Shown here: positions 43,287 through 49,878 of the stretch, one piece after another | Position numbering within the stretch: position 1 is the stretch's first letter | Layout: every line of letters starts with the position of its first letter | Origin: Zootoca vivipara | Taxonomy: Eukaryota | Assembly: GCF_963506605.1 (NCBI RefSeq) | Contig: NC_083292.1 | Coordinates: forward strand, 34,658,001 to 34,722,000 | Length of the DNA stretch: 64,000 bases | Direction of reading: 5' to 3' | Position numbers: made by a program

Positions 43287-44842
43287 TTATTATTTATACC
43301 CCGCCCATCTGGCCGGGTTCCCCCAGCCACTCTTCTAAAAGTTGTATAGTTCCTTTATCTCCTTGAAATCTGATGGGAGGGCGTTCCACAGGAACGGGCA
43401 GAACTGGGTCTTCATCTCCCGCATGGCAGCAGAGTCAAAGGTTCTCCAATATGCCATTCAACAGTGAAAGCCTATAAACGGACGACTCTGCCAATGCCTC
43501 CATCACTGTTCACAGCAAGAGGGGGTTAAAGAGCGCTTTGCGCTGTCACCTGACTTGTACAGTGGGTGAAGCAAACCCGTGTGCCCCCACCATCCCTTTC
43601 TCAATCCATGCTACTAGTCCCTGTGAGAAATTTTTTGCCACCGTCCAATTTTCTGTGAATTACGGAATCCTCTATGTAAACTAAGATCATGGCCACTGGT
43701 CCCATCACCTACTGGCAAATAGAAGGGGAAGAAATGGAGGCAGTGAGAGATTTTACTTTCTTTGGTTCCGTGATAACTGCGGATGGTGACAGCAGTCACG
43801 AAATTAGAAGACGCCTGCTTCTTCGGAGAAAAGCAATGACAAACCTAGACAGCATCTTAAAAAGCAGAGATATCACCTTACCGACAAAAGTCCATATAGT
43901 TAAAACTATGGTTTTCCCAGTAGTGATGTATGGAAGTGAGAGCTGGACCATAAAGAAGGCTGATTGCTGAAGAATTGATGCTTTTGAATTATGGTGCTGG
44001 AGGAGACTCTTGAGAGTCCCATGGACGGCAAGACGATCAAACCTATCCATTCTGAAGGAAATCAGCCCTGAGTGCTCACTGGAAGGACAGATCATGAAGC
44101 TGAGGCTCCAAGACTTTGGCCACCTCATGAGAAGAGAAGACTCCCTGGAAAAGACCCTGATGTTGGGAAAGATGGAGGGCACAAGGAGAAGGGGACGACA
44201 GAGGACGAGATGGTTGGACAGTGTTCTCGAAGCTAAGAACATGAGTTTGACCAAGCTGCGGGAGGCAGTGGAAGACAGGAGTGCCTGGCATGCTCTGGTC
44301 CATGGGGTCACAAAGAGTGGGACACAACTAAACGACTAAACAACAACAACTATGTAATCACCAAGGGAAAAAAGACAGGAAGGTCAGAGTTAATATTAAA
44401 AAGAAAATTTTATTGTTTTGAATTGAAATTGGAACACACCACGAGTGTGATCCACCAGGGCTTATTTGGGGCAACCCCTTATTTGGGGAAGTGGGCATTT
44501 GGGGCAACCCCGAAAGAATTCGTCGAATCCCATCGCCACACAAGCCAGGAAGCACAAGAACTCCTGGAAGTCCACTTCCTGATCCCGGTTGTGGTCCAGG
44601 TCATTCATGATCTTCTGGAATTCTGCCCCGTCCATTCGTTTCTGGGAGCATTGGAAAGAAAAATAGAAACTGTTAGCTTCAATAATTCAGAGCCTGTTTT
44701 TCTCTTCCTTCCTCTTCACTGTTTCCTTTCATGCCGTGTCTTTTTTTAGGTTGTGAAAAGGAGGGTTGGGATGGCATTGGGATTTTTTTAAAAAATAAAA
44801 AATAAAAATCTTATGAAATCAACTCTTGGAGTGGAGGTTTTT

Positions 44843-44889
<47 letters not shown>

Positions 44890-47800: not shown

Positions 47801-49878
47801 GTGGTTTGAGCCTGGGAGAACTTTCCACATAGAAGGGAAGTGCTCTACCACTGAGGTATGGTCCTTTCCTAAAGCAAGTCTAGAGGACACATGGTTCTCC
47901 AGATGTTGTCAGGCCACAACTCTGGCCATTGGCCAGGGATGATGGGGCTAGAGGAACTTGGGAGTCCATAAAGCCTGGCAGAGCCATATGTCCCTCTGTC
48001 CTGCTCTAATGGGAGCCAACATCTTCAGAACATCCTAGCATCCTTCACTACCTTTCCCTTAGCAAAAAGTTCTGTCTGAGCCAGTTGAATGTCATCCTCC
48101 CCAACACAAGAATTTGAGCCACAAAGAAGGGGAATTCTACAGGATTTGCGAACATCTGTCTCTCGACCTCGTTCCAAGGCCCTGGAGGGCTCTATCGGGG
48201 ACATCTCCTCTCGGGATTTCACAAAAACACACACACTGCCAGCTGTTTTGAGTTGCTGATGGAAGGGAGGACAGGAAGAGACTTACCAAGAAGAATAGTA
48301 GCACGGATTCTTGAGCCAAAGTAGAGGGATGCTGTCTGAGTACAGTTGATGGAGGCCCCTTATACCCTCTCCAGGTCCAACCTCCCAAGGCACCACCTGA
48401 CCTGATGGACTCTGTATTGGCCAATAACAAAGCACATCATTTGTGGAGTGTTTTCCCTGCCCAACAGCTGATTGGCTCGTGGGGGTCTCTGGACACGGCA
48501 AACCAACCAACCAGCCTGTCCCTTGCCCATCCTGCATCACCCACCGACGCCCCATTTTTGCCCAGCCAGGTGTGTAACCTCATCAGGCTCCATGCATGGG
48601 CCACTGGCCTCGCATCCTGACAGGTCACAGGCTGCTGATGTGCCGCCCCCAGATGCGATCTGACACTTGAGCATATCCCACGAGGCGCATGGATTCTGAT
48701 GGTTCAGTTGCCTCGCTTAACCCCTTCTGATTGGGGGAACCATGAGTAAGAACACCGGAAGACTGCTGGATCAGGCCGATGGCATGTCTAGTCTGGCATC
48801 TGTTCTCACGGTGGCCAACCAGATGTCCCTGGGAAACCAGCAAGCAGAATCCAAGAACAAAAGGATGTCCTCTTCCTGTGGATGGGCCATTGGCCTGGTT
48901 CAGGAAGGATCAGTTTCTGTTCTTATGTCTGTCCCAGGCTAGATTTGGGGGCAGGCAATCTTGGCGGCTGCCCCAAACAGGGAGAACAGGATTCATGTAT
49001 TCCAAAACAACATGTGAATTGAAATTCAGCGCTCCTTTGATATCCCCACTCCTCTGAATTTTGCAGTGCAGTTCTCCAGCCACGAAACATGTCCCAAAAT
49101 GCACATACAGTCATACCTTGGCTCCTGAACGCCTTGGGAATCGAACGTTCCAGCTCCTGAATGATCAAAAACCAGAAGTGAGTGCTATGGTTTTTTAACG
49201 TTCTTTTGGAAGCCGAATGTCCGATGGGGCTTCCGGTTGGCTGCAGGAGCTTGCTGCAGCCAATCAGAAGCCGTGCTTTGGTTTTTGAACATTTCGAAAG
49301 TCGAACAGACTTCCGGAACGGATTCTGTTCGACTTCTGAGGTATGACTGTACTAGGATTAAGCATGCTTAAAATGGCATGTATAGCAGAAAACAACATGC
49401 ATAGATGTGTTGCGTTTTGGAAAGTTCCTTTGCGCGCACACACACACACAAAAGGTGTCCTATTTGTAACTGAAGGTTACCTGTTGCACCTGGAGCGATG
49501 AGAGAAAAGAGAAGCCCTTGGAGGGATGATCCCATTCATAATAAAATAAAATAATAATAACAATAATTTATTATTTGTAGCCCACCCATCTGGCTGGGTC
49601 TCCTCAGCCACTCTGGGCAGCTTCCGACAAAGATTAAAAATACATTAAAATGTCACACATTAAAAACTTCCCTAAACAGGGCTGCCTTCAGATGTCTTCT
49701 AAATCTCTCTTTGTGGCACTCAAAGGAGTTTCAGAAGACCCTTGGCCAGCATTTGTGCTAGGGTAAATCCACTGGTAAATATTCAATAATTGACCTGTTG
49801 ATTAAAAATATTAATAATTAACCGTGGATTTCAATAACTGGCACTGCAAGCTAAATTCAGCCTGCAAGTTGTAATGCA

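What the first reader, a model, noticed from the sequence alone, without database searches (positions are those of the whole stretch)
44462..48425. Extra S100A4-like paralogue beyond S100A2, with complete promoter and gene structure
Seen: a fourth intact S100 gene with CCAAT, TATA, exon 1 donor, Kozak ATG, both EF hands and a polyA signal. It is most like S100A4 (PLEK, KYKLNK, FQKI, LACVAM) but has the A2-type EMKE. Known: in human the next gene after S100A2 is S100A16, which this does not resemble. Inference: it is either a sauropsid- or squamate-specific duplicate or an ancestral A2-A4 clade member lost in mammals. The change MCNxFF->GFDEFF in helix IV may alter target binding such as myosin IIA.
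Basis: partly seen in the sequence, partly recalled or inferred. Interest (0 to 1): 0.72.

Follow-up and report, generated by a model that had tools for sequence, protein, structure and literature searches.

The report
Extra S100A4-like gene of sauropsids
This is an intact, already annotated calcium-binding S100 gene that lizards, tuatara, turtles and birds keep next to S100A2-A4 and that was not seen in mammals; it is an ordinary family member of modest evolutionary interest.

Summary
On the minus strand at 48.34-44.39 kb lies an intact three-exon S100 gene, called D here: 47 + 59 codons, GT/AG introns in phase 0, Kozak ATG, TATA and CCAAT motifs and AATAAA. It is the fourth of exactly four S100 genes in the window, in the order S100A4, A3-like, A2-like, D.

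Both coding exons are 100% identical to a 106-aa RefSeq protein named "protein S100-A4 [Zootoca vivipara]". The real S100A4 orthologue is the gene at 17.6-15.6 kb.

D belongs to a clade seen in 55 of 124 named database proteins: 7 squamates, tuatara, 15 turtles and 32 birds. No mammal, crocodilian or amphibian was among them. The clade has six diagnostic residues (M50, E54, D61, C77, G85, F86). It is as conserved between species as S100A4 itself. A squamate-specific origin is therefore refuted.

Still unresolved is whether D arose in the sauropsid stem or is an older amniote gene lost in mammals; no AU test rejected any placement. The "A2-type EMKE" is a substitution seen only in Zootoca among the 21 D-type rows.

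Likely function, inferred: a Ca2+-switched S100 dimer whose helix IV target cleft differs from that of S100A4.

It is a new member of a known kind, of low to moderate interest.

The parts
48416..48425 (-). Palindromic ATTGGCCAAT (CCAAT box at 48420-48416). A second CCAAT lies at 48475-48471.
   Evidence: Read directly. Motif only; function not tested.
48360..48364 (-). TATAA box, about 52 nt downstream of the proximal CCAAT.
   Evidence: Motif only.
48287..48337 (-). Predicted non-coding exon 1. The start is inferred about 27 nt after the TATA box at a CTCAGAC initiator-like site. The exon ends before the donor GTAAGT at 48286. It holds no ATG.
   Evidence: The 5' end is inference; no transcript evidence is available.
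46784..48286 (-). Intron 1 (GT...AG).
   Evidence: The acceptor TTTTCAG ends at 46784.
46636..46783 (-). Exon 2: 7 nt of 5'UTR, then the ATG at 46776 and 47 codons (helix I, pseudo-EF-hand, helix II, start of the hinge).
   Evidence: Pfam S_100 E=2.1e-20. 100% identical to P0004.
44642..46635 (-). Intron 2 (phase 0, GTAAGT...CCCAG). It holds a (TAA)15 microsatellite and a MITE-like inverted repeat.
44462..44641 (-). Exon 3 coding part: 59 codons plus TAA (hinge, helix III, canonical EF-hand, helix IV with MGFDEFF, C-terminal tail).
   Evidence: EF-hand_1 E=1.1e-5. 100% identical to P0004. The Ca ligand positions D63, N65, D67, E69, D71 and E74 are all present.
44464..44511 (-). Two in-frame copies of a 15-nt repeat, 33 nt apart, encoding (R)GCPK twice, and two copies of an 11-nt repeat. 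They give the tail RGCPKCPLPQIRGCPK, five residues longer than in the 20 other D-type rows.
44409..44414 (-). AATAAA polyadenylation signal, 48 nt after the stop.
   Evidence: Motif only.
35920..38793 (-). Context: neighbouring gene C, the squamate S100A2-like gene (exon 2 from the ATG at 38793; exon 3 to about 35899).
   Evidence: In the exon-3 tree it groups with snake and skink S100-A2-like proteins at 100/98.
25546..27488 (-). Context: gene B, the squamate S100A3-like gene.
   Evidence: It groups with the Gekko S100-A3-like protein at 99/96.
15583..17651 (-). Context: gene A, the true S100A4 orthologue (101 aa).
   Evidence: Both exons are 100% identical to P0090, 'protein S100-A4 [Zootoca vivipara]', and 75-76% identical to 7 mammalian S100A4 proteins.

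Best explanation
The locus is a functional three-exon gene for a 106-residue S100 protein. It is the Zootoca vivipara member, or that of a very close relative, of a distinct paralogue clade inside the S100A2-A6 subfamily. I call the clade D-type; databases call these proteins 'S100-A4-like'.

The clade predates the crown of Sauropsida: squamates, tuatara, turtles and birds all have it, each alongside a separate S100A4 orthologue. In squamates it sits at the far end of the tandem array, in the order S100A4, A3-like, A2-like, D, all on one strand.

Inferred mechanism, by homology. The protein forms the usual S100 homodimer through helices I and IV. Ca2+ binding to the pseudo-EF-hand (about residues 20-33) and the canonical EF-hand (63-74) opens the cleft between helices III and IV and the hinge. 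That cleft then clamps amphipathic target peptides. The clade-specific residues in the hinge and helix III (M50, E54, D61) and in helix IV (C77, G85, F86, replacing V/T, M and C of S100A4) line or border that cleft. D should therefore have a target set overlapping with, but different from, that of S100A4.

Shown here: the intact gene, its family, the clade, its taxonomic spread and its conservation. Inferred: transcription, Ca2+ binding, dimerisation in vivo and target specificity. Unresolved: whether the duplication predates the split between mammals and sauropsids.
For: Gene intactness and domains.

Identity with an existing model: 100% per exon to the RefSeq-named protein P0004, 106 aa.

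A separate S100A4 orthologue sits in the same window (gene A = P0090).

Taxonomic census: 55 of 124 named proteins carry the D-type helix IV motif. They are 7 squamates, 1 tuatara, 15 turtles and 32 birds, with 0 mammals, 0 crocodilians and 0 amphibians (names read).

Tree: in the 70-row tree the 21 D rows form one clade at 98/86 (starred). Its inner branching is turtles / (tuatara + squamates) / birds, the birds split into palaeognaths and neognaths.

Diagnostic residues: M50, E54, D61, C77, G85 and F86 are present in at least 18 of the 20 other D rows and at most 2 of 27 S100A4 rows. Zootoca has all six, and all the EF-hand 2 ligand positions are kept.

Constraint: D orthologues are 81-88% identical among four squamates, against 66-83% for S100A4 in the same species pairs.

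Similarity ranking: a D-type profile against PDB sequences scores S100A4 158 bits, S100A2 128, S100A3 105, S100A6 102 and S100A5 101. The window's exons taken singly give the same order for S100A4 and S100A2.

Fold: an AlphaFold model of the Hemicordylus orthologue (pLDDT 80.1) has four helices, and its best Foldseek matches are S100A4 crystal structures at TM 0.8-0.9.

Homodimer test on the same orthologue: score 0.41 against a best control of 0.00 (3 controls). The runs agree in at least 57% of contacts, and the partner pLDDT is at least 61. The interface uses residues 3-15, 40-44 and 72-84, which I take to be helices I and IV. The mark was reached by 21 of 30 solved one-chain pairs and 0 of 23 single chains (microbes). 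On eukaryotes it was reached by 17 of 29, but by only 1 of the 7 without an older solved relative. S100 dimers are solved, so this pass may only reflect likeness.

Gene order from other species. A fused skink model P0003 reads D-type followed by A2-like. A fused starling model P0001 reads D-type followed by S100A4. A song-sparrow table lists an 'S100-A4-like' gene in one scan region with S100A16 and an S100-A14-like gene (passage seen).
Against: No transcript, protein or binding data were available. The promoter and exon 1 rest on motifs only.

Support for the D clade falls to 81/75 (78% of bootstrap trees) under plain LG+G4 without the cut-out parts of fused models. The signal lies in exon 3. 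Exon 2 alone does not separate D from S100A4. Exon 3 alone gives a D clade in 52% of bootstrap trees once an S100A6 fragment is added.

The backbone of the subfamily is unresolved.

The absence from mammals, crocodilians and amphibians rests on the 120 listed of 1392 hits of one word-seeded search of annotated proteins, not on genome searches.

Zootoca D has the longest terminal branch among the squamate D rows (0.18; the median over all 70 rows is 0.061), four unique substitutions and a remodelled tail. Some relaxation of constraint in this lineage is therefore possible.

The fold and dimer tests used the Hemicordylus orthologue (81% identical), not the window's protein.
Confidence: 0.82

Rival explanations
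1. Origin variant 1, which sits within the best explanation: D arose by duplication of an S100A4-like or A2-like neighbour in the sauropsid stem, after the split from mammals. On this view mammals never had it.
For: No D-type protein was seen among the roughly 30 mammalian proteins in the listed hits, including echidna and three marsupials. The AU test does not reject a clade of D plus sauropsid S100A4 (p=0.102). D is most similar to S100A4.
Against: That constrained tree is 10.7 log-likelihood units worse than the free tree. In squamates D is separated from S100A4 by the A3-like and A2-like genes. If those two are orthologues of mammalian A3 and A2, they are older than the proposed duplication. 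S100A4 has the shortest branches, so similarity to it may only be shared ancestral character.
Confidence: 0.42
2. D is the sauropsid representative of the S100A5/A6 lineage, for example the orthologue of mammalian S100A5, sitting in a different place in the array.
For: D, the S100A5 rows and the one S100A6 fragment all have an aromatic residue at helix IV position 86, where A2, A3, A4 and the outgroup shown (S100Z) have Cys. The S100A6 fragment also shares E54 and D61 with D (alignment printed).

AU tests do not reject D plus mammalian S100A5 (p=0.378). In the exon-3 tree, holding D with the one S100A6 fragment gave a likelihood 2.0 units higher than the free search (p=0.585).

No S100 exon lies in the 15 kb downstream of S100A4 in the window, where S100A5 would be expected.
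Against: Overall similarity is far lower to S100A5 (101 bits) and S100A6 (102 bits) than to S100A4 (158 bits).

D lies on the opposite side of S100A4 from where A5 and A6 lie in human (order recalled).

A chimeric kiwi model, S100A4 exon 2 joined to S100A6 exon 3, and the fused starling model D then S100A4 together imply the bird order D, A4, A6.

Wheeler et al. report a separate sauropsid S100A5 from alligator (preprint 10.1101/207324, methods passage seen), whereas no crocodilian D-type appeared. Only one S100A6 fragment and no sauropsid S100A5 could be sampled.
Confidence: 0.12
3. D is the true S100A4 orthologue, as its RefSeq name says.
For: P0004 is named 'protein S100-A4 [Zootoca vivipara]'. 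Its best PDB matches are S100A4.
Against: A second protein from the same contig, P0090, carries the same name and equals gene A. Gene A is 75-76% identical per exon to mammalian S100A4, against 70% and 60% for D. Gene A keeps MMCNDFF and the PDKMPR tail. Every sauropsid examined for both has one of each type.
Confidence: 0.03
4. D is a recent squamate-specific or lacertid-specific duplicate.
For: None beyond its first being seen in a lizard.
Against: D-type proteins are found in tuatara, 15 turtle entries and 32 bird entries. The clade's inner branching follows the species groups.
Confidence: 0.01
5. The Zootoca copy is untranscribed or decaying, although its ORF is intact.
For: It has the longest terminal branch among the squamate D rows, four unique substitutions (A8C, L34M, S47G, K66R) and a repeat-driven five-residue tail insertion. 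No expression data were available.
Against: The reading frame is open and the splice sites are canonical. The Kozak ATG is intact. All Ca ligand positions and all six clade-diagnostic residues are kept. The tail change is in frame.
Confidence: 0.04

Closest known systems
S100A4 (metastasin / Mts1), mammalian and sauropsid orthologues
   Same: Same family, fold, length and exon structure. It is the highest-scoring solved relative: 158 bits to the D profile, and 65.7 + 56.3 bits for the two window exons. Foldseek gives TM 0.8-0.9. H17, the pseudo-EF-hand, the EF-hand 2 ligands, C81, F89/F90 and a basic C-terminus are shared.
   Different: D is a separate gene; the orthologue is gene A in the same window. 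Six fixed differences: T/K50M, S54E, N61D, V/T77C, M85G and C86F. The tail is ...CPK-PLP-KK rather than PDK(M/Q)PRKK. D is 55-66% identical to S100A4 of the same species.
RefSeq/UniProt models named 'protein S100-A4-like' in sauropsids (e.g. Sceloporus P0005, Anolis P0040, Sphenodon P0042, Gopherus P0026, Dromaius P0045)
   Same: Same clade and the same diagnostic residues, at 62-82% identity to the Zootoca protein for the species compared. This is the group the window's gene belongs to.
   Different: Zootoca has a tail five residues longer and four unique substitutions. I found no paper that characterises or names the group. Searches: 'S100A4-like' gave 0 papers and 'S100-A4-like' gave 2 papers, both mere gene-list mentions.
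S100A2
   Same: It is the adjacent gene in the array and the second-best solved relative (128 bits). The M34 of Zootoca mimics the A2-type 'EMKE'.
   Different: The squamate A2-like gene is the neighbouring gene C. M34 is not a clade feature.
S100A5 / S100A6
   Same: Aromatic residue at position 86. The one S100A6 fragment also shares E54 and D61. Their placement with D is not rejected.
   Different: Much lower overall similarity (101-102 bits) and a different place in the array (recalled human order; bird order inferred from fused models).

Membership tests
S100 family (Pfam S_100, PF01023) | N-terminal S100-type pseudo-EF-hand domain | tested here: met
   Exon 2: E=2.1e-20, 72.5 bits against a cut-off of 22.
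S100 family (Pfam S_100, PF01023) | C-terminal canonical EF-hand with a full set of Ca ligands | tested here: met
   D63, N65, D67, E69, D71 and E74 are present. Pfam EF-hand_1 gives E=1.1e-5 but 25.1 bits, 0.3 below the curated cut-off when exon 3 is scanned alone.
S100 family (Pfam S_100, PF01023) | Gene structure: non-coding exon 1 and two coding exons split in the hinge between the EF-hands | tested here: met
   The coding exons and the phase-0 intron are confirmed, and the split falls at the same place as in genes A and C. Exon 1 is predicted from motifs only.
S100 family (Pfam S_100, PF01023) | Four-helix S100 fold | tested here: met
   AlphaFold model of the orthologue P0008: pLDDT 80.1, helices 4-19, 31-41, 52-62 and 72-85. 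Top 34 Foldseek hits are S100A4. Tested on the orthologue, not on the window's protein.
S100 family (Pfam S_100, PF01023) | Homodimer through helices I and IV | tested here: inconclusive
   The complex test passed: 0.41 against a best control of 0.00, with interface residues 3-15, 40-44 and 72-84. Solved S100 dimers exist, so the pass may come from likeness. Only 1 of 7 eukaryotic test cases without an older solved relative reached the mark.
S100 family (Pfam S_100, PF01023) | Ca2+-dependent target binding | not testable with these tools
   Needs recombinant protein and calorimetry or NMR.
S100A4 orthologue group | Being the closest gene in its genome to mammalian S100A4 | tested here: not met
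   Gene A is closer: 75.1% and 76.2% mean identity for its two exons, against 69.6% and 59.7% for D, each to 7 mammalian S100A4 proteins.
S100A4 orthologue group | Helix IV M-(M/A)-C-N-(D/E)-F-F with Cys86, and a PDK(M/Q)PR(K) tail | tested here: not met
   D has M-G-F-D-E-F-F and the tail RGCPKCPLPQIRGCPK. 25 of 27 S100A4 rows have C86.
S100A4 orthologue group | Monophyly with S100A4 to the exclusion of other paralogues | tested here: inconclusive
   S100A4 is a paraphyletic grade in the ML tree. AU p=0.232 for an S100A4 clade without D and p=0.144 for D plus all S100A4.
Sauropsid D-type ('S100-A4-like') clade | Six diagnostic residues: M50, E54, D61, C77, G85, F86 | tested here: met
   All six are present in the window's exon 3. 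Each is found in at least 18 of the 20 other D rows and at most 2 of 27 S100A4 rows.
Sauropsid D-type ('S100-A4-like') clade | Groups inside the clade in a tree | tested here: met
   98/86 with the mixture model and 81/75 with LG+G4. Within the clade, D sits among squamates at 100/96. The row used is P0004, which equals both exons. The window's exon 3 alone falls in the squamate D set at 98/96.
S100A5 orthologue group | Monophyly with mammalian S100A5 and a position between S100A4 and S100A6 | tested here: inconclusive
   AU p=0.378, so not rejected. The position does not fit the recalled human order. No sauropsid S100A5 could be sampled.
S100A2 orthologue group | Closest to S100A2 proteins | tested here: not met
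   Gene C holds that place: 73% and 81% mean identity to squamate A2-like proteins for its two exons. D exon 3 is 46-49% identical to A2 rows.

The most novel reading that the evidence does not exclude
D-type is a sixth ancestral amniote member of the S100A2-A6 array. It sat between S100A16 and S100A2, was lost in the mammalian stem and perhaps in crocodilians, and has been kept under purifying selection in lepidosaurs, turtles and birds. Its helix IV cleft (G85/F86/C77) would give it a target repertoire that no mammalian S100 covers.
Probability: 0.4. Interest if true: 0.45.

Novelty: new member of a known kind. Interest (0 to 1): 0.3.

Why it matters
S100A4 is studied almost only in mammals, as a factor in metastasis and fibrosis that binds myosin IIA, annexin A2 and p53. 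Sauropsids carry a second, equally conserved A4-like protein with a changed target cleft. Three consequences follow.

1. 'S100A4' read-outs in birds and reptiles (antibodies, probes, single-cell markers, regeneration studies) may mix two genes. Database names already do: two different Zootoca proteins are both called S100-A4.
2. The clade is a natural experiment on how the low-specificity S100 cleft diverges after duplication. The Harms laboratory pursued that question with S100A5 and S100A6.
3. It adds one gene to the gain-and-loss history of the amniote S100A2-A6 array.

None of this changes how S100 proteins are thought to work.

Tried and rejected
- **Joined model left out.** The two coding exons were never joined. 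All searches of the window's model were made exon by exon. The exact look-up, fold and complex test of the joined 106-aa model were therefore not done. The database protein P0004 stood in for it, and only in local alignments and trees.
- **Exon 3 word-seeded search** found only 2 candidates. A profile of six D-type database proteins was needed.
- **ESM Atlas** with exon 3 gave only generic EF-hand and S100 clusters and no taxonomic help.
- **Does Gly85 break helix IV?** The D-type model has a break at 85/86. The S100A4 control model (P0090, same alignment) has one at 86/87. So there is no D-specific effect, and I dropped the claim.
- **AU tests of six placements:** S100A4 alone 0.232; D + sauropsid A4 0.102; D + all A4 0.144; D + A5 0.378; D + A2 0.307; D + the A6 fragment 0.585. 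None was rejected, so the tree cannot date the duplication.
- **Exon-2-only tree** does not resolve D from S100A4.
- **Search for the next gene upstream.** A Pfam scan of 150 of the 175 ORFs of 48 aa or more above 48.7 kb (those reaching 61.5 kb), plus 6 larger ORFs up to 63.2 kb, found no real domain. S100A16 is not within reach of the window.
- **RNA features.** Rfam and tRNA scans of 43.5-49 kb found nothing.
- **dN/dS** could not be computed, because no orthologous nucleotide sequences are reachable. The only genome collection on hand holds bacteria and archaea.
- **Papers not seen.** Zimmer et al. 2013 and Shang et al. 2008 could not be read (no PMC id for the first; the second is not held).
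- **Supplements closed.** S1 Spreadsheet of PMC5072561 and Table S7 of the 2017 preprint may already classify D-type sequences.
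Full report
**What is there**

The window has no N. Reading 44300-48600 on the minus strand gives a complete small gene:
- a palindromic ATTGGCCAAT at 48425-48416 and a second CCAAT at 48475-48471;
- TATAA at 48364-48360;
- a short ATG-free first exon ending at 48287 before GTAAGT;
- a 1.5-kb intron;
- exon 2 at 46783-46636, with CACCATGG at 46776 and 47 codons;
- a 2.0-kb phase-0 intron (GTAAGT...CCCAG);
- exon 3 with 59 codons and TAA at 44464-44462;
- AATAAA at 44414-44409.

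Exon 2 is a Pfam S_100 domain (E=2.1e-20). Exon 3 holds an EF-hand (E=1.1e-5, 0.3 bits under the curated cut-off when scanned alone). The promoter, transcription start and exon 1 rest on motifs only.

**The neighbourhood**

tBLASTn of the two exon peptides against the window and a local S100 HMM over all 1779 six-frame ORFs find exactly four exon pairs, all on the minus strand:
- gene A at 17651-15604;
- gene B at 27488-25546;
- gene C at 38793-35920;
- the candidate, gene D.

All four have a start and a stop. Phase-0 junction pairs of the searched pattern were found for A, C and D, not for B.

Exon by exon, gene A is 100% identical to the database protein P0090 and 75-76% identical to seven mammalian S100A4 proteins, so it is the S100A4 orthologue. 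Gene C matches squamate 'S100-A2-like' proteins (Lerista 80% and 87%). Gene B matches a Gekko 'S100-A3-like' protein (73% and 74%). The exon-3 tree confirms both groupings at 100/98 and 99/96.

No further S100 exon lies in 1-15 kb. Above 48.7 kb there were 175 ORFs of 48 aa or more. A Pfam scan of the first 150 of them (up to 61.5 kb), plus 6 larger ORFs up to 63.2 kb, found no real domain. The window therefore does not reach the next gene beyond D. That the human order runs A6-A5-A4-A3-A2-A16 is my recollection, not a tool result.

**It is already annotated**

The two exons were never joined, and the joined 106-aa model was not looked up, folded or searched.

Exon 2 alone retrieves P0004, a 106-aa protein named 'protein S100-A4 [Zootoca vivipara]', at 100% identity over 100% of the query. 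Exon 3 is also 100% identical to it. P0090, which equals gene A, carries the same name and comes from a contig of the same size. The window is therefore Zootoca vivipara or something very close to it. RefSeq gives two different genes one name.

**A sauropsid-wide clade**

A profile of six D-type database proteins (alignment A1, which does not contain P0004) found 1392 proteins at E<=1e-10, of which 120 were listed. Among the 124 named proteins carry the D-type helix IV motif: 7 squamates, 1 tuatara, 15 turtles and 32 birds, the birds including palaeognaths and neognaths. None is from a mammal, a crocodilian or an amphibian. The listed mammals (with echidna and three marsupials) and the one crocodilian (Gavialis) are S100A4-type. 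Ten unnamed hits were left out.

In a 70-row maximum-likelihood tree (101 columns, LG+C20) the 21 D rows form one clade at 98/86. Its inner branching is turtles / (tuatara + squamates) / birds. Support weakens in three checks:
- plain LG+G4 without the cut-out pieces of fused models gives 81/75;
- exon 2 alone does not separate D from S100A4;
- exon 3 alone gives a D clade in 52% of bootstrap trees once an S100A6 fragment is added, although the AU test does not reject the clade (p=0.472).

Six residues define the clade: M50, E54, D61, C77, G85 and F86. Each is found in at least 18 of the 20 other D rows and at most 2 of 27 S100A4 rows, and Zootoca has all six.

D orthologues are as conserved as S100A4 orthologues in the same species pairs: 81-88% against 66-83% among four squamates. 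That is the pattern of a gene under purifying selection since before the sauropsid crown.

**Where it sits in the family**

By overall similarity D is closest to S100A4. The D profile scores 158 bits to human S100A4, 128 to S100A2, 105 to S100A3, 102 to S100A6 and 101 to S100A5. The window's exons taken singly also rank S100A4 first and S100A2 second.

S100A4 has the shortest branches, however, and forms a paraphyletic grade from which all other paralogues emerge. The backbone is open. None of six constrained placements is rejected by the AU test:

| Constraint | p-AU |
|---|---|
| S100A4 clade without D | 0.232 |
| D + sauropsid S100A4 | 0.102 |
| D + all S100A4 | 0.144 |
| D + S100A5 | 0.378 |
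| D + S100A2 | 0.307 |
| D + one S100A6 exon-3 fragment | 0.585 |

D with S100A3 is the free tree's own grouping, at 77/59.

D shares an aromatic residue at position 86 with the S100A5 rows and the S100A6 fragment, and E54 and D61 with the S100A6 fragment (alignment). An affinity to that lineage stays open.

Gene order argues for a separate gene at the end of the array:
- D, A2-like, A3-like, A4 in the window;
- D followed by A2-like in a fused skink model, and D followed by S100A4 in a fused starling model;
- a chimeric kiwi model joining S100A4 exon 2 to S100A6 exon 3;
- a song-sparrow table listing an 'S100-A4-like' gene together with S100A16 and an S100-A14-like gene in one scan region (PMC13678279, passage seen). 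Whether that gene is D-type was not verified.

**Literature**

For Wheeler et al. 2016 (PMC5072561) I read sections 6 and 7 and further passages. They state that the A2-A6 clade arose in early tetrapods, had the full mammalian complement by the amniote ancestor, and that 'several duplicates [were] preserved in Sauropsids'. They could assign orthology to 500 of 564 sequences.

For the 2017 preprint (10.1101/207324) I saw passages only. It uses an alligator S100A5 and S100A6 and a chicken S100A6.

Neither text names this clade. Their supplements, which I could not open, may classify its members.

Searches:
- 'S100A4-like' gave 0 papers.
- 'S100-A4-like' gave 2 papers. One is the song-sparrow table. 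The other is a figure legend in a chicken leukocyte single-cell study, listing LOC121107581 'S100-A4-like' among monocyte and heterophil genes (PMC10826067, passage). Its orthology to D was not verified.
- 'S100A4' with 'lizard' and 'regeneration' gave 10 papers; judging by the titles and abstract starts listed, none is relevant.

**How it probably works**

All Ca2+ ligand positions of the canonical EF-hand are kept, as is the pseudo-EF-hand.

An AlphaFold model of the Hemicordylus orthologue (81% identical to the Zootoca protein, pLDDT 80.1) has the four S100 helices. It superposes on S100A4 crystal structures, including the myosin IIA and annexin A2 complexes, at TM 0.8-0.9.

A homodimer test on the same orthologue passed:
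- score 0.41 against a best control of 0.00 (3 controls);
- the runs agree in at least 57% of contacts;
- partner pLDDT at least 61;
- interface residues 3-15, 40-44 and 72-84, which I take to be helices I and IV.

The mark was reached by 21 of 30 solved one-chain pairs and 0 of 23 single chains (microbes). On eukaryotes it was reached by 17 of 29, but by only 1 of the 7 without an older solved relative. S100 dimers are solved, so the pass shows likeness rather than proof.

I therefore infer a Ca2+-switched homodimer. Its cleft between helices III and IV and the hinge, where five of the six diagnostic residues lie or border, binds a target set that differs from that of S100A4. Which S100A4 residues contact myosin IIA is my recollection, and I did not test it. 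The idea that Gly85 kinks helix IV is not supported: the S100A4 control model breaks at almost the same place.

**Zootoca-specific features**

The tail RGCPKCPLPQIRGCPK is five residues longer than in the others. It coincides with two in-frame copies of a 15-nt repeat 33 nt apart and with an 11-nt repeat. The Zootoca terminal branch (0.18) is the longest among the squamate D rows.

**Verdict**

The squamate-specific option is refuted. The choice between 'lost in mammals' and 'gained in the sauropsid stem' is open; I put it at about 0.40 against 0.42, with about 0.12 for an S100A5/A6 affinity.

The gene is an annotated but uncharacterised, and mis-named, member of a well-known family. It is a new member of a known kind, of low to moderate interest.

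Noticed in passing
window 7304-10972 (-): An uninterrupted 1223-aa ORF with aspartyl protease, reverse transcriptase, RNase H and integrase domains (Pfam). It looks like the pol of a Ty3/gypsy-type LTR retroelement, sitting downstream of S100A4 where S100A5 would be expected. It was only scanned.
   Followed up: partly
window 45967-46389 (intron 2 of D): A MITE-like element. Its inverted arms lie at 45967-46031 and 46326-46389 (89-93% complementary). It is interrupted by about 270 nt flanked by a perfect 20-nt direct repeat (46013-46032 and 46287-46306), as if a second insertion had landed in it.
   Followed up: partly
window 44844-44888 (intron 2 of D): A perfect (TAA)15 microsatellite, and next to it an A-rich 7-nt repeat at 44789-44808.
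   Followed up: no
window 44461-44511 (3' coding end of D): Direct repeats of 15 nt and 11 nt duplicate the codons for RGCPK and the CCCCAAATAAG that holds the stop. This gives a tail seen only in Zootoca among the D rows. Whether other lacertids share it is unknown.
   Followed up: partly
database proteins P0004 and P0090 (window genes D and A): Two different Zootoca vivipara proteins, 66% identical, both carry the name 'protein S100-A4'. D-type proteins elsewhere are named S100-A4, S100-A4-like, S10A4 or even S100-A2-like (Catharus P0068).
   Followed up: yes
database proteins P0001, P0003, P0028, P0029, P0030, P0080, P0148, P0157: Many gene models in this array are read-through fusions or exon-swapped chimeras of neighbouring S100 genes. 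Examples: D + S100A4 in a starling, D + A2-like in a skink, A4 + A5 in a vole, A4 exon 2 + A6 exon 3 in a kiwi, A3 exon 2 + A4 exon 3 in a gerbil. They are useful as hints to gene order but would mislead in trees.
   Followed up: partly
window 47290-47530 (intron 1 of D) and 43796-44339: Stretches that look like interspersed repeats, with long spurious ORFs on both strands; the first resembles a tRNA-derived SINE by eye. ARAGORN and Rfam found nothing there, and Pfam found nothing in the ORFs.
   Followed up: partly
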